From: a phage
DNA length: 56,260 nt
Strand: one strand, 5' to 3'
Sequence record: PX583170.1
Positions 1 to 56,260 of the stretch are shown one piece after another. The first letter of the stretch is position 1. Every line of letters starts with the position of its first letter. The translations under genes and the position numbers were made by a program. The notes beneath the pieces were generated by a model. The model saw only the letters and a program-made list of their open reading frames with translations. It did no database searches and was not told the origin of the DNA.

Positions 1-135
1 CGGACTTAAAATACGGTCCCTACCCCAACTTTTTCCTACAGCCTATCGGCTTAATGATAACACCAAGTTAGGCGCTTCGCTTATGAGTCAAGGTCAAAGG
101 CAATCAGAGCACGCTGTTGTAACGAGCTAGTCTTA

Positions 136-157
136 CCATTAGTTGGTTGTGATTATG
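136..157 (+). promoter_or_regulatory. Promoter-motif copy P1 (candidate phage-RNAP promoter) upstream of the RNAP gene
   Basis: ccATTAGTTGGttgtgattatg; shares the CATTAGTTG core with 13 other sites. Confidence 0.4.
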
Positions 158-214
158 AATAGGCTACGCAAGTCTAATCCGTTTCAGTTAAATCATAATC
201 AATTGGAGACTATC

Positions 215-2329
215 ATGACTAATGAAGAATATCGTGCACTGGCTGCTGATGGCGCTCGCTTAAAAGAAGAAGGCCACGGTTGGAAAGACGTGCTTGATAC
301 GATGGACCGTTGCAACCAAATGGTTGATGAAATCACTACTGCTACACAATCCGAAACTAAAACCGAAACTAACTTGGAGACTCGCAAAATGACAACTATC
401 TCAACTCAAACTATCAAATCCGTTGTCCCTGCTATCACGGCTCTGGTATACCGTGCTAAAGAGAAACAGAACTACATGCAGCCTCAGACCTGTGCTATTG
501 CTGCTCTTGCAATCTTCAAGATGATGACCTCATTCACTCGTGATGATGTTGTCCCAGCCATTGCAATGGTTGAGCTGGCTTCTGCTTCTATTGCTGATGC
601 CAACCGTTATAACAACGATTTGAAAGCAATGCACTATGTTGACCCAGCTATCAACCTCATTGGTTTGGCTAAGCACTTTGGCTTCATTACCATGAACGAA
701 GACAAGTCATTCCAACAAACTGATACATGGGTTGAACTGGTTACAACCAAAGACACAGCAGTGCCATTCACTGAGCGTGTTACATCTGAATCTCGTCGCA
801 AGCCTTTCGTTAAAGGTGGCAAAGTTAAGCCATCCAAAACTTTGAAAGCTGCAATCGAATTCCTGCAAGATACTGAGTACCATGTGGAGACTGAGATGGT
901 TCGCATCATCCAGTCCATGCTTGAGCAACGTACCTACGGTGGTTTGCAGATGCCAGAAGCAATCCAGACTGAACTTCATGTTTGGAACAATGCTGTAGCA
1001 ATGATGAATCAGGATAAGCTGTATTCTGACTACTTTGCTGATAACCGTGGTCGCCTGTATCATGTAGCATGTGCTGGCCCTAACCCACAATCCTCTGACT
1101 TTGCTCGTTGCTTGTATTCTCACAATGTTGAGAACATCGTTAAGAAGTTTAACGAAGATGGTTCTACTACCATCGCATACAACATGTTCATGGCAGAGCT
1201 GGAAGATATTTCTGGTGGTGAATGGTGCAGTGCTAAGCGTTTAACTTATGTTGCTCAGAATCCAGCTGGTTCACTTGCTCGCATGATGAACATGCCTAAA
1301 GCTGAACGTCCTTCCAAGCCATTCACTTATGTTCGTCTGGCTCTGGATTGGTTCAAGTTTGAGACTACAGGTGAGTGCGATTCTCGTGTAGGCTTTGGCT
1401 TAGATGCTAAATGTTCTGGTACTCAATATCTGGCATTCATTGCTGGTAACATGGAAATGGCTCGTGCAACAGGTCTGGTTGATTCTGAGACTAAAGCATC
1501 TGACCCATACCAGTTATCTCTTCGTGAACTGTTGAAGTTACTCGACCGTTCTTCAATGAAGCCATCTCCTGAAATCATGGATGAGTTCTTGAATCCGAAA
1601 GCTGGTCGTAAGTTTATCAAAACTCCATACATGGCTATCCAATATGGTGGTGGTAAAGCAGCATTGACTGGTTCTTCTGACTTCATTAGCTACATGACAG
1701 AAGCTCTCCAGATTCCTATGGAGAAAGCTGAGGCATTTGCTGAACTGTGTGTAGAAGCAATCCATAACGCATTGGGTGCTAAGATTAACATGTTCATCGA
1801 GAAAGCTGCTGATGCTGCATACAATCGTTGTGTTGAACTTGGCAAAGAGTACATCACATATCGCCACACTGATGGTCAGGTTGTAATGAAGCCTTGCTTC
1901 CCATCTCGTGAAATCTGTGAGGCATTCAGCATTCGTGTTGATAGTCAAACTCGTGTTATCTTTGGTCAGATTCAGGAGAACAAGCCTTGGACCATTCGTG
2001 AGTCCAATCCAACTAAAGAAGAGTTCAAGCGTACCTTCGTTGTTAACTACATCCAAGGTATTGACGCATTGGTTGCTCGTACTGTTGCAGTTAAAGCTAA
2101 AGAAGCTGGTCTTCGTGGCTTTACTTCAATTCACGATTGTTTCCGTTGCTGCTTAGCTGATGCTCCACGTATGATGGAAGTTATTCGTGCAGCATATGTT
2201 GAAATCTTCGTAACCAACAATCAATTCGAGAATCTGTCTAAGCAACTCGGTGGCATTCAGATGTATCATGAGAACATCGTAACCGAAGAGCTTCTGATGA
2301 GCGAACATGCTTACTACTTCTGTCAATGA
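215..2329 (+). CDS. T7-like single-subunit DNA-dependent RNA polymerase (ORF opens at 143; ATG at 215 has SD ggaga)
   Basis: Motif A-like FGLDAKCSGTQYLAF (T7 DGSCSGIQHF), motif B-like KFIKTPYMAIQYGGG, motif C-like TSIHDCF (T7 HDSF). Shorter than T7 RNAP. Confidence 0.85.
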   Translation: MTNEEYRALAADGARLKEEGHGWKDVLDTMDRCNQMVDEITTATQSETKTETNLETRKMTTISTQTIKSVVPAITALVYRAKEKQNYMQPQTCAIAALAIFKMMTSFTRDDVVPAIAMVELASASIADANRYNNDLKAMHYVDPAINLIGLAKHFGFITMNEDKSFQQTDTWVELVTTKDTAVPFTERVTSESRRKPFVKGGKVKPSKTLKAAIEFLQDTEYHVETEMVRIIQSMLEQRTYGGLQMPEAIQTELHVWNNAVAMMNQDKLYSDYFADNRGRLYHVACAGPNPQSSDFARCLYSHNVENIVKKFNEDGSTTIAYNMFMAELEDISGGEWCSAKRLTYVAQNPAGSLARMMNMPKAERPSKPFTYVRLALDWFKFETTGECDSRVGFGLDAKCSGTQYLAFIAGNMEMARATGLVDSETKASDPYQLSLRELLKLLDRSSMKPSPEIMDEFLNPKAGRKFIKTPYMAIQYGGGKAALTGSSDFISYMTEALQIPMEKAEAFAELCVEAIHNALGAKINMFIEKAADAAYNRCVELGKEYITYRHTDGQVVMKPCFPSREICEAFSIRVDSQTRVIFGQIQENKPWTIRESNPTKEEFKRTFVVNYIQGIDALVARTVAVKAKEAGLRGFTSIHDCFRCCLADAPRMMEVIRAAYVEIFVTNNQFENLSKQLGGIQMYHENIVTEELLMSEHAYYFCQ

Positions 2330-2370
2330 TATTAATTGGTCAAGGATGACCACAAACTTGGAGACTTATA

Positions 2371-2571
2371 ATGAACATTCAACAAATCAATCAAATCGAA
2401 AACTGTTTCAATCCTCATCATACCTGTGACATGAGCAACTTATCTCGTCCTACAGTGGAGGAGACTAAAGACTTCTTAGAATTGTTAGCAGAATATAAAC
2501 AAGAATCGCATGTACTATTGCATGCATATTTGCACAATTCTGGATACTTTGATACAGAAATACCGTTCTGA
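2371..2571 (+). CDS. Hypothetical small protein (66 aa)
   Basis: ATG with SD ggaga 8 nt upstream; followed by a terminator. Confidence 0.5.
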   Translation: MNIQQINQIENCFNPHHTCDMSNLSRPTVEETKDFLELLAEYKQESHVLLHAYLHNSGYFDTEIPF

Positions 2572-2576
2572 TATTT

Positions 2577-2603
2577 GGGAGCTTCGGCTCCCTTTTCTTG
2601 TTT
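2577..2603 (+). terminator. Rho-independent terminator
   Basis: GGGAGC-ttcg-GCTCCC perfect 6-bp stem with UUCG loop, then ttttcttgttt. Confidence 0.75.
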
Positions 2604-2623
2604 CAACTAAGTCGCATAACTCA

Positions 2624-2645
2624 GCATTAGTTGTATGTGAATCTA
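2624..2645 (+). promoter_or_regulatory. Promoter-motif copy P2
   Basis: gCATTAGTTGtATGTGAATcta, directly after the terminator and 22 nt before the next gene. Confidence 0.5.
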
Positions 2646-2666
2646 ATAAACCATTTGGAGCATATC

Positions 2667-2834
2667 ATGTTTACAGTGACCTTAGTAACCTATTATGGCA
2701 AGCAAGTTTGTGAGAAGTTTGAGACTTTGAAAGAAGCCCGTGAGTTTGCAGCTCGTGAAGAGAATATTTATGTAGACTGTGAAATCACAGATGGTGATAA
2801 GCAGTATGAAGTTGTAGCTCCTACACTCAACTGA
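2667..2834 (+). CDS. Hypothetical small protein (55 aa; ORF opens at 2631)
   Basis: ATG at 2667 preceded by tttggag SD; the earlier TTG start lies inside the promoter motif. Confidence 0.45.
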   Translation: MFTVTLVTYYGKQVCEKFETLKEAREFAAREENIYVDCEITDGDKQYEVVAPTLN

Positions 2835-2848
2835 TTCCCAATATTCGG

Positions 2849-2858
2849 ACAATATTGT
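2849..2858. promoter_or_regulatory. Perfect 10-bp palindrome ACAATATTGT (operator-like)
   Basis: Self-complementary; flanked by aatattcgg and gcatgtaatattgt. Confidence 0.35.
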
Positions 2859-2884
2859 TGCATGTAATATTGTCCCGATATTCG

Positions 2885-2906
2885 ACATTAGTTGGATATG
2901 AAGTAA
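2885..2906 (+). promoter_or_regulatory. Promoter-motif copy P3
   Basis: aCATTAGTTGGATATGAAgtaa; followed by hairpin CGGAG-aaata-CTCCG at 2913..2927; no gene for ~1 kb downstream. Confidence 0.45.
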
Positions 2907-3277
2907 AGAATACGGAGAAATACTCCGCATGACATATTGAATCATTCTAGAAACATTCAGCATGTCAGCTTTGAGTTACAGTGTTGTAATGATGTGGCAA
3001 TCATTGAACTCCCTGGGTAGGCCACCTACAGTTCCAGCAACCATGACACAGAGTAGGAATATCTATCCGAAACTTGTACTTCACCTATAGCATGTCTATT
3101 AGCTACAGTATTGTTCCTTCTCCTATTATCAAGGCCCACCCACAAGCCGGGAGATAACTTTGACAAGACTGGAACTTTTGGACATGCTTCTTTCTTTCTA
3201 CAAGAATTTGAAAGAAGAGAAGAAGTCGGACTAAGCCTCTCGTTTTCACGCAGAAGCCGCCCCGATTTTGAGCAACA

Positions 3278-3294
3278 AATATTGTGACAATATT
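3278..3294. promoter_or_regulatory. 17-bp inverted repeat AATATTGT-G-ACAATATT (operator-like)
   Basis: 8-bp arms are exact reverse complements; 51 bp beyond the repeat end at 3227. Confidence 0.4.
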
Positions 3295-3525
3295 GTCGCA
3301 GTATGGCATGTAAATATTGCTACAAATTGGCATGTTGGAATGTGGCAGAATTGTTAGAGGACTAATCACCTCGAAGATACAATCGTCTACCAATCTGGCA
3401 TGTTAATTTTGTAACAGTATTTGTGCCAATTTCGCATGTAATAGTTGTATCAGTAATGACCCAATATTCTTGCAACCCGCATGAATACTGGCTTCCAGCC
3501 AAGCGAAGGCTTTATCATCGCATGT

Positions 3526-3542
3526 AATATTGTGACAATATT
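3526..3542. promoter_or_regulatory. Second exact copy of AATATTGT-G-ACAATATT
   Basis: Identical 17-mer to 3278..3294. Confidence 0.4.
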
Positions 3543-3716
3543 GGGATAAAACCCTTTATTTAATTAGTTTTATTATGCTGTACATGGTCGGTTTTCCGTA
3601 CCTGCTTGCTCCAATCTTAATGTGCCAAATACGTTAAGTATGGGAGTAAACCTACGTGAACGTAGTGAACAATGACGCATGTTTAATTGTGACAAAATTC
3701 GTCTATTTGGCAGATG

Positions 3717-28857: not shown

Positions 28858-30466
28858 ATGACTTCCAAGAAGAAAAACAATCTCTCTGTTAAAGTTGCAG
28901 ATGGGTTAGAAAACCTTGTAACGGGGTTGGGCGGTCAGGCAGATAAGTCCACTTTTAACCAGTGGACTTTCTCAAACAAGAACGCGAACTATCGCGAACT
29001 TATGAACCGCTTCCGTGAGGACTGGGTTGCACAGAAAGTGTGTACCGTCATTCCTCAAGATATGACGCGTAAGTGGCGGCATATTGATACCGAAGAAGGA
29101 CGCAAAGCGGATAAGAAACTTCGTATTCGTAAGCTGTTCCGTGAGGCGTATCAATGGGCCAGGTTGTATGGTACTTCGTTTGTTCTGCTCGACCGCGAAC
29201 TTATGAACCGCTTCCGTGAGGACTGGGTTGCACAGAAAGTGTGTACCGTCATTCCTCAAGATATGACGCGTAAGTGGCGGCATATTGATACCGAAGAAGG
29301 ACGCAAAGCGGATAAGAAACTTCGTATTCGTAAGCTGTTCCGTGACTCAAGATATGACGCGTAAGTGGCGGCATATTGATACCGAAGAAGGACGCAAAGC
29401 GGATAAGAAACTTCGTATTCGTAAGCTGTTCCGTGAGGCGTATCAATGGGCCAGGTTGTATGGTACTTCGTTTGTTCTGCTCGACCTAAAAGGTACGGGC
29501 AAACTTGATACACCATTGCGACTGGATAACTTGAAGACTGGATGTATTAAATCCATGAGAGTTATTGACCGCTCACGCTTATTTGCCGCAGGGACTATGG
29601 TTCTGGACCCTTTGAGTCCTCACTATGGTTTGCCAGAGTATTACACTTTGGCTGGGTATCCCGGCTATATCCACTACACTCGTTTCCTTCGGTTCGAGGG
29701 TACTGAACTGCCGCTGTTCGAATTCCAACGCAACATGTGGTATTCTGATTCGGTACTTATTCCACTGCTGAAAACGATTGACCAATTCTACACAACTGCC
29801 GCTGCTGCTGCCAGCCTTGCCCAAGAAGCCACTATTGATGTGGTAACTGTTGAAGGCTTACAATCTCTGCTTACATCACCGGAAGGTGAAGCTGCTGTGA
29901 TGAAGCGCTTCAAACTCATGAAGCTGGCAAAGAGTATTTATAACGTCTTAATTCTCGACAATACGGAGAAGTATGACACCAAGTCAATTGCACTATCTGG
30001 TGTGAAAGATTTGATTTGGGAATACTTGAAGATAGTTGCTGCCGCAGTTGGTATTCCGGCTACACGTTTCCTTTCTGCATCTCCAGACGGTATGAATGCT
30101 ACGGGCGAATCTGACCTCGTAAACTATATCGACTTGTTGACTGGCTTGCAGACTTCTGTGTTCGACCCTCGTTTAGATGTGGTAGACAAGATTGTCCAGG
30201 CGCACTTTGGCATTGAAGAATATAACTACGAATGGTTAGATATCTTCCCTGAATCCAATGTTGAGAAAGCGAAGCGAGCTAAAGATTTGGCATTTGCTGT
30301 TGACCTGCTGGTTAACAACGGTACTATTACTACCGAAGTTGCAAACGAAGTCATGTTCCATTCGGGCGTGTTCGGAACTTGTGACCTTGGCAAACCAAAT
30401 CCTAATCCTCCTAACATCCAAAAGGGTAACGCAAGTGAAGCAAAACCAAAACCTGGTTCAGCTTAA
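28858..30466 (+). pseudogene. Putative portal gene split into two ORFs (28858..29364 and 29285..30466) by a scrambled tandem duplication
   Basis: Removing 29194..29485 (292 bp) gives one continuous 438-codon ORF; portal call is by position after TerL only. Confidence 0.5.
28993..29485. repeat. Scrambled tandem duplication: full 201-bp unit, then two partial copies
   Basis: Unit 28993..29193; copy 29194..29345 matches unit bases 1-152; copy 29346..29485 matches unit bases 62-201. Confidence 0.9.
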
Positions 30467-31982: not shown

Positions 31983-32557
31983 CGCCACCTCCAGCTCCTA
32001 CAGTATCTGCTGTTGCAGGGGCTGTAACTGCGGACGCATCTGCCTCTGATGCAACTGTAACTGTAGACAAACTGTTTAAGTTTGAGAACTCTGCGGCAAC
32101 AGATTATAACTTCGCTGTTACACCTCCCGTGACTGGTGTTTCTGTGGCGGCAAACGGCACTGTGACTGTACTCAGTGCAACGACTACAGCCACTTCTGCG
32201 ACAATCAAGGCAACAAATAAAACAGAGTCTGGCGTAACTGCATCCAAACAGATTACGATTAAGCCTAAGCCTCCTGCACCTACGGTGTCTGCTGTAGATG
32301 GAGTTGTAACGGCTGATGCGTCTTCTACTGATGCCACTGTAACTGTGGACAAACTGTTTAAGTTTGGTAACTCTACAGCAACAGACTACACCTACGCTAT
32401 TACGCCTCCTGTGACTGGCGTTTCTGTGGCTGCAAATGGTACTGTAACCGTCTTAAATGAGACAACTACCGATACCTCTGCCACGGCTAAGGCAACAAAC
32501 AAAACAACCTCCAGCGTGACTGCAACTAAAGAGATTGCTATTACGCCGAAGTCTTAA
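31976..32557 (+). CDS. Two tandem Ig-like (Big_2-like) domains in the -1 frame, reachable only by frameshifting
   Basis: No ATG/GTG/TTG between 31964 and 32128 in this frame; repeat unit PPAPTVSAV...VTGVSVAANGTVTVL...KATNKT occurs twice. Confidence 0.5.
   Translation, partial: AVTPPPAPTVSAVAGAVTADASASDATVTVDKLFKFENSAATDYNFAVTPPVTGVSVAANGTVTVLSATTTATSATIKATNKTESGVTASKQITIKPKPPAPTVSAVDGVVTADASSTDATVTVDKLFKFGNSTATDYTYAITPPVTGVSVAANGTVTVLNETTTDTSATAKATNKTTSSVTATKEIAITPKS
31988..32554. repeat. Diverged tandem duplication, 2 x 282 bp, encoding the two Ig-like domains
   Basis: Protein repeats start at 31988 and 32270; ~80% nt identity by eye. Confidence 0.7.
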
Positions 32558-41641: not shown

Positions 41642-41667
41642 GGGGAGAAATCCCCAGCTTTCCTTTT
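41642..41667 (+). terminator. Rho-independent terminator after the tape measure gene
   Basis: GGGGA-gaaa-TCCCC stem with GAAA loop, then agctttcctttt. Confidence 0.6.
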
Positions 41668-41689
41668 ACATTAGTTGAATATGTATTAA
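41668..41689 (+). promoter_or_regulatory. Promoter-motif copy P14
   Basis: aCATTAGTTGaATATGTAttaa, 20 nt before the next gene. Confidence 0.5.
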
Positions 41690-49548: not shown

Positions 49549-50574
49549 ATGGCTAAAGGTTACTCTTTAGATGCCCTCGTTCTAGAACGTTGGTCCAGAT
49601 ATGCAACTCCGATTGGCATTCGTACAGACATAAATAAGTTAGATGGTGTTGATAATGCAGGCATCTATATGGTGTCTTCAAACAGTGCCGCAGGAACTAT
49701 TAATGGTCTGCCAGTTAAGATGGCTGGAGTTTTAGAGGTCCTTCCCTGGACAGCTACAGGACAGAGTATTCAAAGGTATACTGTATATAATACCTCAGAG
49801 GAATACTCAAGAACTGAAACTGGTGAACCAGGCCTGTGGACGGATTGGCGTAAGAAAATAGATGTAAGGAACGTTTTCGATGCCATTTACCCAATCGGCA
49901 TTGTTCTCCAGTTTGACAACGCCACCAACCCGAACAACATGTTCACCGGTACTGTGTGGGAACAAATTGTAGATGGTCGTTCTTCCCGTGCTGCAACTGG
50001 CCCAGAGGCAGGCACAACTGCTGGTCAGATTGGTTCAGTAGGTGGGTCTGATACCGCCACAATTGCTGTAGCCAACCTACCAGGCCACACGCACGGAATG
50101 CAAAACCACACCCACGGTATTGCAGCCCACTCGCACACAATGGCCCACACTCACACCATTAACCACGACCACGGTGCGGTAACATCAAGTTCATCTGGCA
50201 ACCATGCGCACAGTGTAAGTGGAAGTACGTCATCTGCTGGGGACCACACGCACTCAATAGGTGGGGCCGTCTCTGTTGCTGCTGGCGGTGGTGCCACCAT
50301 TAACCAAAACCAAAGTGGTGTAAACACTCGCTCTGCTGGTGCTCACACACACTCAATAAGTGGGTCTACCAACTCTACTGGCGCTCATGCACACACTGTG
50401 GACCTTCCAAACTTCACAGGTACAAGTGGTGGCTCTAGTGCGGGTAGCACTGGCGGCACGGCACTGACCACTGGTGGCCCTAGTAACAATGAAACGACCT
50501 CAACTGGCAGCGGGACCGCACTGAATGTGTGTAACTCTGTACACTACTATGCCTTCTGGAAACGGACGGCTTAA
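49549..50574 (+). CDS. Tail fiber / receptor-binding protein with His-x-His repeat tip
   Basis: GHTHGMQNHTHGIAAHSHTMAHTHTINHDHG...GNHAHSVSG...GDHTHSIGG...GAHTHSISG...GAHAHTV. Confidence 0.5.
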   Translation: MAKGYSLDALVLERWSRYATPIGIRTDINKLDGVDNAGIYMVSSNSAAGTINGLPVKMAGVLEVLPWTATGQSIQRYTVYNTSEEYSRTETGEPGLWTDWRKKIDVRNVFDAIYPIGIVLQFDNATNPNNMFTGTVWEQIVDGRSSRAATGPEAGTTAGQIGSVGGSDTATIAVANLPGHTHGMQNHTHGIAAHSHTMAHTHTINHDHGAVTSSSSGNHAHSVSGSTSSAGDHTHSIGGAVSVAAGGGATINQNQSGVNTRSAGAHTHSISGSTNSTGAHAHTVDLPNFTGTSGGSSAGSTGGTALTTGGPSNNETTSTGSGTALNVCNSVHYYAFWKRTA

Positions 50575-50581
50575 GGAAATC

Positions 50582-50923
50582 ATGGAACGCTTATCCATTC
50601 AGATGTTTGTGGACCTAATGCACCAATATGGCGTATGGCATGGATTATTGGCTGGCCTAACGGCTTTAATCCGTGGGGCATATGAAAGCGAAGGCTTAAG
50701 CAAGGCGCTGCTGGATGCGGCGCTGTGCAGCTTAATCGGACTGTTTGCCTTTCATGTCGCTGGTACATTTGAAACCTTCACAACTAATGTCACTATGCAG
50801 TTAGTTCTGGCTATCGTGATTGGTGTCATCGGTGCAAACCTCATTATCACAACTGTCAGGGAAAGTTTCTCTGGCGCAATCAAACAACTTAATCCTTTGA
50901 CGTGGTTCAAGAAGGCACGATGA
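50582..50923 (+). CDS. Putative holin (ORF opens at 50525)
   Basis: ATG with SD taaggaaa; three hydrophobic segments; directly upstream of endolysin. Confidence 0.5.
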   Translation: MERLSIQMFVDLMHQYGVWHGLLAGLTALIRGAYESEGLSKALLDAALCSLIGLFAFHVAGTFETFTTNVTMQLVLAIVIGVIGANLIITTVRESFSGAIKQLNPLTWFKKAR

Positions 50924-50940
50924 AATGATAAGGAACCCGA

Positions 50941-51495
50941 ATGCTATCATTCAAAGTCCTTGCAGTTCTGGCAGCTTTAGTTCACATCAACGCCCCAGCT
51001 TCGGTTGGGGCAGTGAATTCTGCTATTACAGATTTTGCAAGTCATTCTTATTTAAATGGAAGTCTGAAACTATCTTCTTCACAACGCAAAGAGCTAGAAT
51101 GCTACACTAAAGTTATCTGGTATGAAGCTCGCGGAGAAGACAAACATGGAAAGATTCTGGTAGCTAATGTCGTCCGTAATAGAACAGAGTTCGGGAAGCC
51201 ATTCGCTAACACCGTTTGTGATGTTGTCTATCAACGCAATCAATTTGCATGGACACGAGAAGCAAAGAAGAAGAATGCCCAATGGAAGCATGTAGCAAAG
51301 ATTAATTATGCCACAGAACAACAACAAGTTCTGGACACTATTAATGTTGCAATCTCTTTTGTATTATTTAATCAACCCTCTGTCACCAAAGCAACCCACT
51401 TTTGTACAGCATCGGAGAAGTGCAACTTCAAGAATGTTAAAGGTTTGGGACGTTATGGTGGTCATAAATTCTATGAGTATCTAGGAAATCTGTAA
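50941..51495 (+). CDS. Endolysin, SleB-like cell-wall hydrolase with N-terminal signal or SAR segment
   Basis: [24 protein letters not shown]; core [28 protein letters not shown]. Confidence 0.6.
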
Positions 51496-52595
51496 TGGCT
51501 TACACTACCTTTTCACAAACCAAGAATAACCAACTACTGGAGCCAATGTTCTTTGGTCAGAACGTTAACGTTGCTCGATATGACCAACAGAAGTACAGCA
51601 TCTTCGAGAAGTTAATCGAGAAGCAGTTATCTTTCTTTTGGCGACCTGAGGAGGTTGATGTTAGCCAGGACCGAATTGACTATGCTGGTCTGCCTGAATG
51701 CGAGAAGCACATCTTTACCAGCAATTTACGATACCAAATCCTGCTTGATTCCATTCAGGGACGTGGACCAACCACAGTTTTGCTGCCAATTGTGAGCATT
51801 CCTGAGCTGGAAACTTGGATTGAAACTTGGTCATTCTCAGAGACAATTCACTCCCGTTCTTACACACATATTATTCGTAATATTGTTACAGACCCGAGTG
51901 TCATTTTCGACGAAATTGTGGAGAATGAGCACATTAAAATGCGTGCAATCGGCATCTCCCAATATTATGACGAGCTTCAACATCTAACTTCCATGTGGCA
52001 TCTGCATGAAGATAAAGTTTCTCTTCGTGAGCTTAAGAAGAAGCTGTATTTATGCCTCATGTCCATCAATGCACTGGAAGCAATCCGCTTTTACGTCAGT
52101 TTTGCTTGCTCATTTGCCTTCGCTGAACGCAAGTTAATGGAAGGAAATGCCAAGATTATTCGGCTAATTGCTCGTGATGAAGCACTTCATTTGACAGGAA
52201 CTCAACACATGCTGAACCTTCTTGCAAGCGGTGTTGATGACCCAGAAATGGCAGAAATTGCTAAAGAATGTCGTGAAGAATGCCAGAAATTGTTCGAAGA
52301 TGTGGCCCAACAAGAGAAAGATTGGGCCGATTATTTGTTCAAAGATGGCTCAATGATTGGCTTAAACAAGCAAATTCTGTGCGGATATGTGGAATATATC
52401 ACGAATATTCGTATGCAAGCAGTTGGATTGGATGCTCCATTCAAAGGTGCTACTAACCCGATTCCTTGGATTAACGCATGGTTGAATTCGGATGCTGTAC
52501 AAGTTGCTCCACAAGAAACGGAGATTAGTTCGTACCTTGTCGGGCAGATTGACTCCGAAGTGGACACCAATGCCCTGGGCGGATTTGAGCTGTAA
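51495..52595 (+). CDS. nrdB: Class Ia ribonucleotide reductase beta subunit (NrdB); no NrdA in the window
   Basis: Near-collinear with E. coli NrdB as recalled ([11 protein letters not shown]...[11 protein letters not shown]...[16 protein letters not shown]...[17 protein letters not shown]...GQIDSEVDT). Confidence 0.85.
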
Positions 52596-52617
52596 CGATT
52601 ATATGTGAGAAGAGATT

Positions 52618-52642
52618 CGATGCGTTAGCGTCGTTTCTCTTT
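52618..52642 (+). terminator. Rho-independent terminator after nrdB
   Basis: CGATGCG-ttag-CGTCG stem (6 bp, one G-U) then tttctcttt. Confidence 0.55.
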
Positions 52643-52683
52643 GAACTAGAATAAAACAAGTAAATTAAATATTTATTTATTCC

Positions 52684-52701
52684 CAATATTGCTACAATAT
52701 T
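52684..52701. promoter_or_regulatory. Near-palindromic CAATATTG-ct-ACAATATT element related to the leader palindromes
   Basis: Lies in an AT-rich tract with poly-T runs and three ACGAGACT(C)-like repeats at 52907..52970. Confidence 0.35.
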
Positions 52702-53168
52702 AAGAGTAATATTAGGAATGCGTAAAGTTCAAAACCAAATGGTACATGGTCGGTCAACTGTACCTCCTTCGGAGAAGGTACCTGGATAGAAATTCGTTCA
52801 TGGTCGGTCAGCTGTATCTAGCCGAAATTTGTTCGAACAGTTGTCTGACTATGAAATAAATTTTTTTTTATAATTTTTTTTTTATTTTTAAATATTGCTA
52901 CAGAATTAATGAGACTAGAATTCGTAACAAAGCTACGAGACTCGAATTGTTTCAATATTAACGAGACTCAATCTGTGACAATATTATAATTTTTATTTTT
53001 GGGCCAGCGGGGAGGGGAAGCCCAACGTCCTATCGGACTTAAAATACGGTCCCTACCCCAACTTTTTCCTACAGCCTATCGGCTTAATGATAACACCAAG
53101 TTAGGCGCTTCGCTTATGAGTCAAGGTCAAAGGCAATCAGAGCACGCTGTTGTAACGAGCTAGTCTTA

Positions 53169-53190
53169 CCATTAGTTGGTTGTGATTATG
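53169..53190 (+). promoter_or_regulatory. Promoter-motif copy P1 (right repeat copy)
   Basis: Identical to 136..157. Confidence 0.4.
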
Positions 53191-53247
53191 AATAGGCTAC
53201 GCAAGTCTAATCCGTTTCAGTTAAATCATAATCAATTGGAGACTATC

Positions 53248-55362
53248 ATGACTAATGAAGAATATCGTGCACTGGCTGCTGATGGCGCTCGCTTAAAAGA
53301 AGAAGGCCACGGTTGGAAAGACGTGCTTGATACGATGGACCGTTGCAACCAAATGGTTGATGAAATCACTACTGCTACACAATCCGAAACTAAAACCGAA
53401 ACTAACTTGGAGACTCGCAAAATGACAACTATCTCAACTCAAACTATCAAATCCGTTGTCCCTGCTATCACGGCTCTGGTATACCGTGCTAAAGAGAAAC
53501 AGAACTACATGCAGCCTCAGACCTGTGCTATTGCTGCTCTTGCAATCTTCAAGATGATGACCTCATTCACTCGTGATGATGTTGTCCCAGCCATTGCAAT
53601 GGTTGAGCTGGCTTCTGCTTCTATTGCTGATGCCAACCGTTATAACAACGATTTGAAAGCAATGCACTATGTTGACCCAGCTATCAACCTCATTGGTTTG
53701 GCTAAGCACTTTGGCTTCATTACCATGAACGAAGACAAGTCATTCCAACAAACTGATACATGGGTTGAACTGGTTACAACCAAAGACACAGCAGTGCCAT
53801 TCACTGAGCGTGTTACATCTGAATCTCGTCGCAAGCCTTTCGTTAAAGGTGGCAAAGTTAAGCCATCCAAAACTTTGAAAGCTGCAATCGAATTCCTGCA
53901 AGATACTGAGTACCATGTGGAGACTGAGATGGTTCGCATCATCCAGTCCATGCTTGAGCAACGTACCTACGGTGGTTTGCAGATGCCAGAAGCAATCCAG
54001 ACTGAACTTCATGTTTGGAACAATGCTGTAGCAATGATGAATCAGGATAAGCTGTATTCTGACTACTTTGCTGATAACCGTGGTCGCCTGTATCATGTAG
54101 CATGTGCTGGCCCTAACCCACAATCCTCTGACTTTGCTCGTTGCTTGTATTCTCACAATGTTGAGAACATCGTTAAGAAGTTTAACGAAGATGGTTCTAC
54201 TACCATCGCATACAACATGTTCATGGCAGAGCTGGAAGATATTTCTGGTGGTGAATGGTGCAGTGCTAAGCGTTTAACTTATGTTGCTCAGAATCCAGCT
54301 GGTTCACTTGCTCGCATGATGAACATGCCTAAAGCTGAACGTCCTTCCAAGCCATTCACTTATGTTCGTCTGGCTCTGGATTGGTTCAAGTTTGAGACTA
54401 CAGGTGAGTGCGATTCTCGTGTAGGCTTTGGCTTAGATGCTAAATGTTCTGGTACTCAATATCTGGCATTCATTGCTGGTAACATGGAAATGGCTCGTGC
54501 AACAGGTCTGGTTGATTCTGAGACTAAAGCATCTGACCCATACCAGTTATCTCTTCGTGAACTGTTGAAGTTACTCGACCGTTCTTCAATGAAGCCATCT
54601 CCTGAAATCATGGATGAGTTCTTGAATCCGAAAGCTGGTCGTAAGTTTATCAAAACTCCATACATGGCTATCCAATATGGTGGTGGTAAAGCAGCATTGA
54701 CTGGTTCTTCTGACTTCATTAGCTACATGACAGAAGCTCTCCAGATTCCTATGGAGAAAGCTGAGGCATTTGCTGAACTGTGTGTAGAAGCAATCCATAA
54801 CGCATTGGGTGCTAAGATTAACATGTTCATCGAGAAAGCTGCTGATGCTGCATACAATCGTTGTGTTGAACTTGGCAAAGAGTACATCACATATCGCCAC
54901 ACTGATGGTCAGGTTGTAATGAAGCCTTGCTTCCCATCTCGTGAAATCTGTGAGGCATTCAGCATTCGTGTTGATAGTCAAACTCGTGTTATCTTTGGTC
55001 AGATTCAGGAGAACAAGCCTTGGACCATTCGTGAGTCCAATCCAACTAAAGAAGAGTTCAAGCGTACCTTCGTTGTTAACTACATCCAAGGTATTGACGC
55101 ATTGGTTGCTCGTACTGTTGCAGTTAAAGCTAAAGAAGCTGGTCTTCGTGGCTTTACTTCAATTCACGATTGTTTCCGTTGCTGCTTAGCTGATGCTCCA
55201 CGTATGATGGAAGTTATTCGTGCAGCATATGTTGAAATCTTCGTAACCAACAATCAATTCGAGAATCTGTCTAAGCAACTCGGTGGCATTCAGATGTATC
55301 ATGAGAACATCGTAACCGAAGAGCTTCTGATGAGCGAACATGCTTACTACTTCTGTCAATGA
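53248..55362 (+). CDS. T7-like single-subunit RNA polymerase, second copy
   Basis: Protein identical to 215..2329. Confidence 0.85.
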   Translation: MTNEEYRALAADGARLKEEGHGWKDVLDTMDRCNQMVDEITTATQSETKTETNLETRKMTTISTQTIKSVVPAITALVYRAKEKQNYMQPQTCAIAALAIFKMMTSFTRDDVVPAIAMVELASASIADANRYNNDLKAMHYVDPAINLIGLAKHFGFITMNEDKSFQQTDTWVELVTTKDTAVPFTERVTSESRRKPFVKGGKVKPSKTLKAAIEFLQDTEYHVETEMVRIIQSMLEQRTYGGLQMPEAIQTELHVWNNAVAMMNQDKLYSDYFADNRGRLYHVACAGPNPQSSDFARCLYSHNVENIVKKFNEDGSTTIAYNMFMAELEDISGGEWCSAKRLTYVAQNPAGSLARMMNMPKAERPSKPFTYVRLALDWFKFETTGECDSRVGFGLDAKCSGTQYLAFIAGNMEMARATGLVDSETKASDPYQLSLRELLKLLDRSSMKPSPEIMDEFLNPKAGRKFIKTPYMAIQYGGGKAALTGSSDFISYMTEALQIPMEKAEAFAELCVEAIHNALGAKINMFIEKAADAAYNRCVELGKEYITYRHTDGQVVMKPCFPSREICEAFSIRVDSQTRVIFGQIQENKPWTIRESNPTKEEFKRTFVVNYIQGIDALVARTVAVKAKEAGLRGFTSIHDCFRCCLADAPRMMEVIRAAYVEIFVTNNQFENLSKQLGGIQMYHENIVTEELLMSEHAYYFCQ

Positions 55363-55403
55363 TATTAATTGGTCAAGGATGACCACAAACTTGGAGACTT
55401 ATA

Positions 55404-55604
55404 ATGAACATTCAACAAATCAATCAAATCGAAAACTGTTTCAATCCTCATCATACCTGTGACATGAGCAACTTATCTCGTCCTACAGTGGAGGAGACTA
55501 AAGACTTCTTAGAATTGTTAGCAGAATATAAACAAGAATCGCATGTACTATTGCATGCATATTTGCACAATTCTGGATACTTTGATACAGAAATACCGTT
55601 CTGA
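55404..55604 (+). CDS. Hypothetical small protein, second copy
   Basis: Identical to 2371..2571. Confidence 0.5.
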   Translation: MNIQQINQIENCFNPHHTCDMSNLSRPTVEETKDFLELLAEYKQESHVLLHAYLHNSGYFDTEIPF

Positions 55605-55609
55605 TATTT

Positions 55610-55636
55610 GGGAGCTTCGGCTCCCTTTTCTTGTTT
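55610..55636 (+). terminator. Rho-independent terminator, second copy
   Basis: Identical to 2577..2603. Confidence 0.75.
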
Positions 55637-55656
55637 CAACTAAGTCGCATAACTCA

Positions 55657-55678
55657 GCATTAGTTGTATGTGAATCTA
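55657..55678 (+). promoter_or_regulatory. Promoter-motif copy P2 (right repeat copy)
   Basis: Identical to 2624..2645. Confidence 0.5.
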
Positions 55679-55699
55679 ATAAACCATTTGGAGCATATC

Positions 55700-55867
55700 A
55701 TGTTTACAGTGACCTTAGTAACCTATTATGGCAAGCAAGTTTGTGAGAAGTTTGAGACTTTGAAAGAAGCCCGTGAGTTTGCAGCTCGTGAAGAGAATAT
55801 TTATGTAGACTGTGAAATCACAGATGGTGATAAGCAGTATGAAGTTGTAGCTCCTACACTCAACTGA
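55700..55867 (+). CDS. Hypothetical small protein, second copy
   Basis: Identical to 2667..2834. Confidence 0.45.
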   Translation: MFTVTLVTYYGKQVCEKFETLKEAREFAAREENIYVDCEITDGDKQYEVVAPTLN

Positions 55868-55917
55868 TTCCCAATATTCGGACAATATTGTTGCATGTAA
55901 TATTGTCCCGATATTCG

Positions 55918-55939
55918 ACATTAGTTGGATATGAAGTAA
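55918..55939 (+). promoter_or_regulatory. Promoter-motif copy P3 (right repeat copy)
   Basis: Identical to 2885..2906. Confidence 0.45.
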
Positions 55940-56260
55940 AGAATACGGAGAAATACTCCGCATGACATATTGAATCATTCTAGAAACATTCAGCATGTCA
56001 GCTTTGAGTTACAGTGTTGTAATGATGTGGCAATCATTGAACTCCCTGGGTAGGCCACCTACAGTTCCAGCAACCATGACACAGAGTAGGAATATCTATC
56101 CGAAACTTGTACTTCACCTATAGCATGTCTATTAGCTACAGTATTGTTCCTTCTCCTATTATCAAGGCCCACCCACAAGCCGGGAGATAACTTTGACAAG
56201 ACTGGAACTTTTGGACATGCTTCTTTCTTTCTACAAGAATTTGAAAGAAGAGAAGAAGTC

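What the first reader, a model, noticed from the sequence alone, without database searches (positions are those of the whole stretch)
51495..52595. Host-like NrdB with no NrdA partner in the phage
The 366-aa product is close to collinear with E. coli NrdB as I recall it but lacks an internal segment. No ORF in the window resembles NrdA or any other RNR large subunit. The phage subunit would have to pair with host NrdA, or the gene is a recent host capture. It is the last gene before the right repeat and has its own terminator.
Basis: partly seen in the sequence, partly recalled or inferred. Interest (0 to 1): 0.5.

Follow-up and report, generated by a model that had tools for sequence, protein, structure and literature searches.

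The report
Phage reductase small subunit without partner
This phiEcoM-GJ1-type E. coli phage carries an intact, strongly conserved copy of only the small (radical-generating) subunit of ribonucleotide reductase. It most likely teams up with the host's large subunit to make DNA precursors; the oddity was already recorded for this phage group, but nobody has tested it.

Summary
Window 51495-52595 (+) encodes a 366-aa class Ia NrdB that is 82% identical to, and collinear with, E. coli NrdB, except for a 10-residue deletion that removes the beta-hairpin. The window has no NrdA or other large subunit. The gene is the last one before the right 3,227-bp terminal repeat.

The window is a Carltongylesvirus (Chaseviridae). 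All 46 records of that genus carry the gene. Sister genera (4HA13, Faunus, Y2) go straight from endolysin to the operon terminator, so nrdB is a genus-specific insertion.

"Recent host capture" is rejected:
- Nucleotide identity to E. coli nrdB is 71% and synonymous sites are saturated.
- GC3 matches the phage (0.44), not E. coli nrdB (0.62).
- The phage alleles themselves differ by dS of about 0.8.

Selection is strongly purifying (dN/dS 0.03-0.08). All iron ligands, Tyr122, the radical-transfer residues and the invariant positions of the NrdA-binding tail are kept.

The best reading is an active beta2 that forms a hybrid enzyme with host NrdA, as poxvirus R2 does with host R1. This is inferred, not shown. 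Dwivedi et al. 2013 already listed phiEcoM-GJ1 as nrdB-only, so the finding is known and of modest interest.

The parts
51495..52595 (+). nrdB: class Ia ribonucleotide reductase beta subunit, 366 aa
   Evidence: ORF. PF00268. NF006576 equivalog, 700 bits. E. coli R2 structures E=8.5e-200. 82% identity, with all catalytic residues conserved.
51483..51497 (+). Shine-Dalgarno AGGAAAT followed by TAATG, where the endolysin stop TAA overlaps the nrdB ATG. This points to translational coupling and co-transcription with the lysis genes.
   Evidence: Sequence read directly. The same SD is reported for ST32 ORF79.
52002..52016 (+). Deletion junction (codons H170-E-D-K-V174). It replaces the 15-residue beta-hairpin segment of E. 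coli NrdB (literature residues about 170-184).
   Evidence: Alignments. AF2 models show strands 174-178 and 181-185 in the cellular homologue, against a 6-residue loop between helices 155-170 and 177-210 in the phage protein.
52488..52592 (+). C-terminal 35 residues (E. coli literature residues 341-375): E350, Y356 and the NrdA-binding tail [20 protein letters not shown]
   Evidence: All but two (N343A, V351T) of the positions invariant in 116 cellular NrdBs are kept; the tail anchors are among those kept. The changed tail positions are the naturally variable ones. There are 12-14 synonymous and 0 nonsynonymous differences between phage alleles.
52605..52646 (+). Terminator-like stem-loop ending the late transcription unit
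   Evidence: -21.9 kcal/mol, z=-4.5. Sequence-invariant in 7 relatives. Homologous hairpin downstream of the endolysin in 4HA13 and Faunus, and a comparable strong hairpin in Y2.
50941..51495 (+). Endolysin, the gene immediately upstream (context). The holin ORF lies at 50525-50923.
   Evidence: ORFs. Annotated in relatives.
53034..56260 (.). Right copy of the 3,227-bp direct terminal repeat (left copy 1-3227). It contains the RNA polymerase gene.
   Evidence: Exact repeat, 0 mismatches. Repeats of about 3 kb are a family trait: 3,234 bp in Mangalitsa and 3,120 bp in 4HA13 by PhageTerm.
41667..41679 (+). Nearest upstream copy of the strand-specific motif ACATTAGTTGRA. It is a candidate phage-RNAP promoter that would drive the unit ending with nrdB.
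   Evidence: There is no copy between 41667 and nrdB.

Best explanation
The gene encodes a catalytically competent diferric-tyrosyl-radical beta2 subunit of class Ia ribonucleotide reductase. An ancestor of the genus Carltongylesvirus acquired it, without nrdA, from an Enterobacterales-type source, possibly through another phage. It was inserted between the endolysin gene and the late-operon terminator.

During infection it is made from the late transcript. It uses host iron and the host cofactor-maintenance machinery. Through its conserved C-terminal tail it binds host NrdA (alpha2) to form a hybrid alpha2-beta2 enzyme. This raises or sustains dNTP synthesis for phage DNA replication, alongside the phage's ThyX, dNMP kinase and dUTPase.

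Shown here: gene identity, integrity, the conserved residues, purifying selection, absence of a phage NrdA, and the insertion history. Inferred: binding to host NrdA, enzymatic activity, and a benefit to the phage.
For: 1. It is a true class Ia NrdB. Kept residues are the iron ligands D84, E115, H118, E204, E238 and H241, the radical residue Y122, and W48, D237, E350 and Y356.

2. Selection is strongly purifying among nine phage alleles. dN/dS is 0.03-0.08 at dS up to 0.8. The 35-codon tail shows 12-14 synonymous and 0 nonsynonymous changes between the two main alleles. The gene is intact and full length in all 46 genus records.

3. In the tail, E350, Y356, L357, G359, Q360, I361, D362, F373 and L375 are invariant in 116 cellular gammaproteobacterial NrdBs and are all kept. 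The residues that differ from E. coli sit at naturally variable positions. T4-like NrdB, which has its own NrdA, has a diverged tail (45% over the last 20 residues).

4. There is no NrdA in the window, in DE15 or in 4HA13.

5. The phage already invests in dNTP supply: ThyX, and dUTPase and dNMP kinase as annotated in relatives.

6. There is a precedent. Most chordopoxviruses encode only R2, which forms functional hybrids with host R1 through its C-terminus (PMC2900304).
Against: - There is no direct evidence of binding or activity.
- The tail is no more conserved relative to E. coli than the rest of the protein (dN 0.16 against 0.15).
- Two positions invariant in cellular NrdBs are changed (N343A, V351T).
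- The gene sits at the end of the late lysis operon with no promoter-like element of its own. That is an odd time to make a DNA-precursor enzyme.
- Sister genera that infect E. coli (4HA13) do without it, so any benefit is accessory.
- The effect of losing the beta-hairpin is unknown.
Confidence: 0.7

Rival explanations
1. Recent capture of the host gene that is not (yet) adapted to the phage: a passenger with no selected function.
For: High protein similarity to E. coli NrdB (82%). Location at a genome-end site where accessory genes tend to be inserted.
Against: Nucleotide identity is 71% and dS is saturated against E. coli. GC3 is 0.44 against 0.62. The gene is present and intact in all 46 genus records. 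dN/dS is 0.03-0.08 and dS between phage alleles is 0.78. The tree places it outside the cellular Enterobacterales.
Confidence: 0.02
2. The protein binds host NrdA (or heterodimerises with host NrdB) but acts as an inhibitor or modulator rather than as an active radical donor. Alternatively, it has a function unrelated to RNR.
For: Late-operon expression. Loss of the hairpin. In vaccinia, a catalytically dead F4 (R2) protein that still binds R1 is dominant negative.
Against: Every catalytic and radical-transfer residue is conserved under strong purifying selection. An inhibitor would not need them. The R2lox-type models score only 26 bits against a cutoff of 274.
Confidence: 0.06
3. The phage encodes an unrecognised, highly divergent or split large subunit, so that NrdB has a phage partner.
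For: Many small ORFs of unknown function lie in the early region.
Against: tblastn with NrdA gives E of 0.8 or worse. The nine longest ORFs checked (393-1241 aa) have other Pfam assignments. Remaining ORFs are under 390 aa and lie in structural modules syntenic with annotated 4HA13 genes. RNR large subunits are over 500 aa.
Confidence: 0.02
4. It is an active hybrid enzyme, but the phage beta2 was selected because it changes regulation or robustness. Examples would be weaker dATP-induced alpha4beta4 inactivation, a more stable radical, or independence from host nrdAB transcription and NrdR control once the host is shut off.
For: The hairpin is eroded stepwise only in this orphan lineage: -4, -7 and -10 residues in the three allele groups. 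NrdBs of phages with their own NrdA keep it. R292K, D302Q and Q306G are fixed next to I297, the beta residue that packs into the NrdA cone domain in the inhibited ring.
Against: I297 itself and the SMIGLN loop are conserved. By helix topology, the hairpin (between the helices ending at 171 and starting at 187) and the I297 loop lie at opposite ends of the bundle; this is an inference. No published role for the beta-subunit hairpin turned up in the papers read. Erosion may simply reflect a dispensable decoration.
Confidence: 0.15

Closest known systems
E. coli NrdB (R2, class Ia beta2; PDB 1RIB, 7AI8, 6W4X)
   Same: 82% identical and collinear. Same iron ligands, Y122, W48, D237, E350, Y356 and hydrophobic tail anchors.
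   Different: The beta-hairpin is deleted (10 residues). There are 66 substitutions, 43 of them fixed in all phage alleles examined. It is encoded without nrdA or yfaE, has phage-like codon composition, and is expressed from a phage late operon.
gp75 of phiEcoM-GJ1 and ORF79 of ST32 (Carltongylesvirus NrdB)
   Same: Same gene at the same position, after the endolysin and last before the terminal repeat. 92-99% protein identity.
   Different: GJ1-type alleles are 372 aa (4-residue hairpin deletion), FXie-2024a is 369 aa, and the window/ST32 type is 366 aa. dS between allele types is about 0.78, while the adjacent endolysin differs by 0.085.
Poxvirus R2-only genomes (vaccinia F4 paradigm; Gammon et al. 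2010, PMC2900304)
   Same: The virus carries only the small subunit. That subunit is host-like and keeps the C-terminal motif that binds the large subunit. It is proposed (in poxviruses, shown) to form hybrid enzymes with the host large subunit.
   Different: Eukaryotic class Ia enzyme and unrelated viruses. The hybrid is experimentally shown there and untested here.
T4-type and Privateervirus phage NrdAB
   Same: Phage-encoded class Ia beta subunits used to boost dNTP supply.
   Different: Those phages carry nrdA next to nrdB. The T4-type tail has diverged (45% identity over the last 20 residues) and the hairpin region is longer, not deleted.

Membership tests
Class Ia RNR beta subunit (NrdB) | Profile match above the curated threshold | tested here: met
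   PF00268, 168 bits against a cutoff of 33.6. NF006576 equivalog, 700 bits against a cutoff of 346.
Class Ia RNR beta subunit (NrdB) | Di-iron ligands D84, E115, H118, E204, E238, H241 and radical Tyr122 (E. coli numbering) | tested here: met
   All conserved and invariant across the alignment.
Class Ia RNR beta subunit (NrdB) | Radical-transfer residues W48, D237, Y356 and E350 | tested here: met
   All conserved.
Class Ia RNR beta subunit (NrdB) | C-terminal tail able to bind the alpha subunit | tested here: inconclusive
   The sequence determinants are kept and under purifying selection. Binding itself cannot be tested with these tools.
Class Ia RNR beta subunit (NrdB) | Tyrosyl-radical formation and support of nucleotide reduction | not testable with these tools
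   Needs EPR and enzyme assays.
E. coli-type (gammaproteobacterial) NrdB architecture | Beta-hairpin between the helices ending at about residue 171 and starting at about 187 | tested here: not met
   Ten residues are deleted. The AF2 model of the cellular homologue shows strands 174-178 and 181-185, while the phage model shows a 6-residue loop. The models have low overall pLDDT (58-60), but pLDDT is 75-87 in this region of the cellular model.
Complete phage-encoded class Ia RNR (nrdA + nrdB) | A large-subunit gene in the same genome | tested here: not met
   No NrdA by tblastn. The nine longest ORFs checked are otherwise assigned. None is annotated in DE15 or 4HA13.
Viral small-subunit-only strategy (poxvirus F4-like hybrid RNR) | Only R2/NrdB is encoded, with a host-compatible C-terminus | tested here: met
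Viral small-subunit-only strategy (poxvirus F4-like hybrid RNR) | Physical and functional complex with the host large subunit | not testable with these tools
   Requires pull-down and activity assays.
Carltongylesvirus (Chaseviridae) | Collinear genome of about 53 kb, direct terminal repeats of about 3 kb, single-subunit RNAP, near-identical core genes | tested here: met
   TerL is 96.6-99.9% identical to genus members. nrdB is 95-97% identical at the nucleotide level to Bp10, PO103-1 and DE15. The repeat is 3,227 bp, against 3,234 bp in Mangalitsa.

The most novel reading that the evidence does not exclude
The orphan phage beta2, which has progressively lost the beta-hairpin and fixed substitutions around the I297 loop, forms with host NrdA a hybrid reductase whose control differs from the host enzyme. 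Examples would be weakened dATP-driven alpha4beta4 inactivation or a longer-lived radical. A phage could then deregulate host dNTP synthesis by supplying one small subunit.
Probability: 0.1. Interest if true: 0.6.

Novelty: already known. Interest (0 to 1): 0.3.

Why it matters
If the hybrid enzyme is real, it is the bacterial-virus counterpart of the poxvirus R2-only strategy. It would show that supplying only the radical-bearing subunit is enough to raise host RNR capacity. My recollection of Hristova et al. 2008, which I could not read here, is that the active radical content of beta2 limits E. coli RNR activity in vivo.

The three natural hairpin-deletion alleles (-4, -7 and -10 residues) are a ready-made series for asking what the E. 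coli beta-hairpin does.

As it stands, the gene is a correctly annotated, previously noted accessory metabolic gene of a well-sampled phage genus.

Tried and rejected
- **NrdA and YfaE search.** tblastn of E. coli NrdA and YfaE against the window, DE15, 4HA13, and the right ends of Faunus and Y2 found nothing.
- **Promoter scan.** The sigma-70 scan around the gene gave 8 sites against 6.5 expected, so it was uninformative.
- **Hairpin and the alpha4beta4 contact.** I tried to link the hairpin to the dATP-inhibited ring. The papers I could read name beta I297 and alpha residues 19-27 and 35-43, and do not mention the hairpin. Chen 2018, Hristova 2008, Cotruvo & Stubbe 2011 and Jamalludeen 2008 were not held.
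- **AF2 models.** Both models had low overall confidence (pLDDT 58-60) because the alignments were shallow. I used them only for local secondary structure and ran no fold search, since 82% identity to solved structures makes one unnecessary.
- **Tail comparison.** Comparing the tail with phages that own an NrdA did not discriminate. Privateervirus tails are about as E. coli-like as the orphan's, 70% against 75%.
- **Recent capture.** Rejected.

Full report
**What is there**

The ORF at 51495-52595 (+) starts with ATG and encodes 366 aa. It matches Pfam PF00268. It matches the NCBIfam equivalog model for class Ia RNR beta at 700 bits, against a cutoff of 346. It aligns end to end with E. coli R2 crystal-structure sequences (E=8.5e-200).

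A global alignment with E. coli NrdB gives 300 identities over 366 aligned positions (82.0%). There is one 10-residue gap: E. coli ...HLLGEGTHTVNGKTVTVSL... becomes ...HLHEDKVSL.... The following residues are all conserved:
- the iron ligands D84, E115, H118, E204, E238 and H241;
- the radical residue Y122;
- W48, D237, E350 and Y356.

AlphaFold models are of low overall confidence and were used only for local secondary structure. In a cellular homologue (P0005, 95% identical to E. coli NrdB), the segment forms two strands, 174-178 and 181-185, between two long helices. In the phage protein a six-residue loop joins those helices. The "missing internal segment" is therefore the beta-hairpin.

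**Context**

The window is a complete genome of the phiEcoM-GJ1/ST32 type (genus Carltongylesvirus, family Chaseviridae).
- nrdB is 95-97% identical at the DNA level to phages Bp10, PO103-1 and DE15.
- The large terminase is 96.6-99.9% identical to genus members.
- Window 1-3227 and 53034-56260 are identical. This matches the roughly 3-kb direct terminal repeats described for the family: 3,234 bp in Mangalitsa, 3,120 bp in 4HA13, and the ICTV profile.

So nrdB is indeed the last sizeable gene before the right repeat.

Its ATG overlaps the endolysin stop codon (TAATG) and an AGGAAAT Shine-Dalgarno sequence precedes it. A stable stem-loop follows at 52605-52646 (-21.9 kcal/mol, z=-4.5). That stem-loop is sequence-invariant in seven relatives. 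Homologous hairpins, with the same CGTTAG loop and flanks, follow the endolysin in 4HA13 and Faunus, and Y2 has a comparable strong hairpin there. It is therefore the family's late-operon terminator, not one brought in by nrdB.

**No partner**

tblastn with E. coli NrdA and YfaE finds nothing in the window (best E=0.83). The nine longest ORFs checked (393-1241 aa) have non-RNR Pfam assignments, and a tenth, 216-aa ORF is ThyX. The annotated relatives DE15 and 4HA13 list no large subunit, and local tblastn on them is negative.

**History**

All 46 genus records contain a full-length copy at 91-99% protein identity. The next-best phage hits are only about 76% identical and belong to unrelated phages.

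The sister genera Sabourvirus (4HA13, also an E. coli phage), Faunusvirus and Loessnervirus (Y2) have holin, then endolysin, then tiny ORFs, then RNA polymerase, with no nrdB. The gene is thus a genus-specific insertion between the endolysin and the operon terminator.

It is not a recent capture:
- blastn to all 5,426 complete E. coli genomes gives 60-80% identity, 71% for the best.
- Synonymous sites are saturated against E. coli.
- GC is 0.431 and GC3 is 0.439, matching the phage genome (0.442). E. coli nrdB has GC 0.505 and GC3 0.623.
- The protein is 77-82% identical to Enterobacterales and Vibrio NrdBs. E. coli NrdB is 87-95% identical to other Enterobacterales.
- A neighbour-joining tree puts the phage clade outside the cellular Enterobacterales, beside Pantoea phage Survivor and an unnamed sequence, in 168 of 200 bootstraps. 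Long-branch attraction is possible.

Within the genus there are three allele types: 372, 369 and 366 aa. They show a stepwise shortening of the hairpin by 4, 7 and 10 residues. The 366- and 372-aa alleles differ by dS=0.78, while the abutting endolysin genes of the same two phages differ by dS=0.085. This indicates old allelic lineages shuffled by recombination at the endolysin/nrdB junction.

**Is it functional, and with what?**

Pairwise dN/dS among nine phage alleles is 0.03-0.08. In the last 35 codons, which hold E350, Y356 and the alpha-binding tail, the window and GJ1/PYps3T alleles differ by 12-14 synonymous and 0 nonsynonymous changes.

I compared the tail with 116 cellular gammaproteobacterial NrdBs.
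- The tail anchor positions invariant in those proteins are all retained: E350, Y356, L357, G359, Q360, I361, D362, F373 and L375.
- The differences from E. coli at positions 353, 368, 369, 371, 372 and 374 fall at naturally variable positions and use residues seen in cellular proteins.
- The exceptions are N343A and V351T. Position 343 is invariant in the cellular proteins; position 351 varies there, but threonine is not among the residues seen.

A T4-type NrdB, which has its own NrdA, has a diverged tail. Privateervirus NrdBs, which also have their own NrdA, keep an E. coli-like tail, so the tail comparison is consistent with the model but not discriminating.

These data argue for a catalytically active beta2 that must dock on a gammaproteobacterial class Ia alpha2. 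The only one available is host NrdA. The phage also encodes ThyX, and its relatives are annotated with dNMP kinase and dUTPase, which fits a dNTP-supply role. I put this explanation at about 0.7. Binding, activity and benefit are inferred, not shown.

**Points against, or unexplained**

- The gene appears to be transcribed with the late lysis genes. No sigma-70-like site stands out. The nearest copy of the strand-specific motif ACATTAGTTGRA, a candidate phage-RNAP promoter, is at 41667.
- A sister E. coli phage lacks the gene.
- The consequence of losing the hairpin is unknown. The one beta residue I could find described at the dATP-inhibited alpha4beta4 interface, I297, is conserved, though R292K, D302Q and Q306G are fixed nearby. 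By helix topology the hairpin lies at the opposite end of the bundle from the I297 loop; this is my inference. I therefore give the "altered regulation" reading low probability.

**What is already known**

GenBank records of the genus annotate the gene as the RNR beta subunit. The ST32 paper lists it as the last ORF, 366 aa against 372 aa in GJ1.

Dwivedi et al. 2013 state that "two phages only contain nrdB". Their Table S1 lists phiEcoM-GJ1 as one of them, and they note that it is unknown whether incomplete RNR gene sets are functional.

The closest mechanistic precedent is in poxviruses. Most chordopoxviruses encode only R2, and vaccinia F4 forms functional hybrids with host R1 through its C-terminus.

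What this analysis adds:
- the insertion history;
- rejection of recent capture;
- the strength of purifying selection on the tail;
- the stepwise erosion of the hairpin;
- the deep allelic divergence.

**Verdict**

This is a real, ordinary-to-mildly-interesting accessory metabolic gene. Novelty: already known. Interest: 0.3.

Noticed in passing
window 2884, 6723, 11377, 11517, 11654, 13613, 41667 (+); weaker copies at 135, 2623, 3745, 12845, 21555: A strand-specific motif, (A)ACATTAGTTGRA(wtTGAa), gives 19 matches at up to 2 mismatches against 4.4 expected. All good copies are intergenic and on the + strand. It is conserved and + strand-only in DE15 (12 against 0) and in the sister genus 4HA13 (15 against 0). 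In the Faunus right end it also flanks the RNAP gene, though there 2 of 5 hits lie on the - strand. The copy at 41667 directly follows a hairpin and T-run. The 2022 ICTV profile says Chaseviridae RNAP promoters have not been identified, so this is a candidate.
   Followed up: partly
window 2827-3603 and 52672-52909: Two sets of short repeats sit next to the terminal-repeat boundaries at both ends. The palindrome AATATTGTGACAATATT occurs four times (2840, 3278, 3526, 52685). CATGGTCGGTCAnCTGTAyCT occurs three times (3575, 52737, 52791). They may be operator, promoter or packaging signals.
   Followed up: no
window 50941-52595 compared with L006 (phiEcoM-GJ1): There is a sharp discontinuity in divergence. 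The endolysin differs by dS=0.085 and the abutting nrdB by dS=0.78 between the same two phages. In the Yersinia phage PYps3T and in MLP1 the endolysin is the divergent gene (dS about 0.8). This looks like a recombination mosaic with a breakpoint at the gene junction.
   Followed up: partly
L014 (Pantoea phage Survivor) 3995-5379; L018 (Erwinia phage Ea35-70) 6001-7134: These jumbo phages carry an E. coli-like nrdB (70-77% identical) with no nrdA within 4-6 kb. In Survivor a yfaE-like ferredoxin (65% identical to YfaE) follows it. Neither phage is among the 40 best-ranked phage NrdA matches, which extend down to about 61% identity to E. coli NrdA. They may have a distant or divergent nrdA, or be further nrdB-only cases.
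   Followed up: partly
window 28993-29436 and 31988-32551: Two internal duplications lie in the head-gene region. One is a pair of 100% identical 152-nt copies 201 nt apart, with a third copy at 69%. The other is a 282-nt tandem pair at 77% identity. They could be real duplications or an assembly artefact.
   Followed up: no
E. coli genome collection: 202 E. coli plasmid records gave partial matches of 60-80% identity to the phage nrdB. SSU5-like phage-plasmids encode an NrdA about 63% identical to E. coli NrdA, which probably explains these hits.
   Followed up: no
record PP952070.1 (H26): 'Staphylococcus phage Pel53' (host given as S. hyicus) is a 53.7-kb genome with a GJ1-type nrdB. It is 85.6% identical to the window at the nucleotide level and 92% at the protein level. 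The host label looks doubtful for a Carltongylesvirus.
   Followed up: no
window 143-2329 / 53176-55362: The mechanical ORF for the RNA polymerase (728 aa, TTG start) begins inside a copy of the ACATTAGTTGG motif. Relatives annotate a shorter protein: 618 aa in DE15 and 647 aa in Faunus. The true start is probably further downstream.
   Followed up: no
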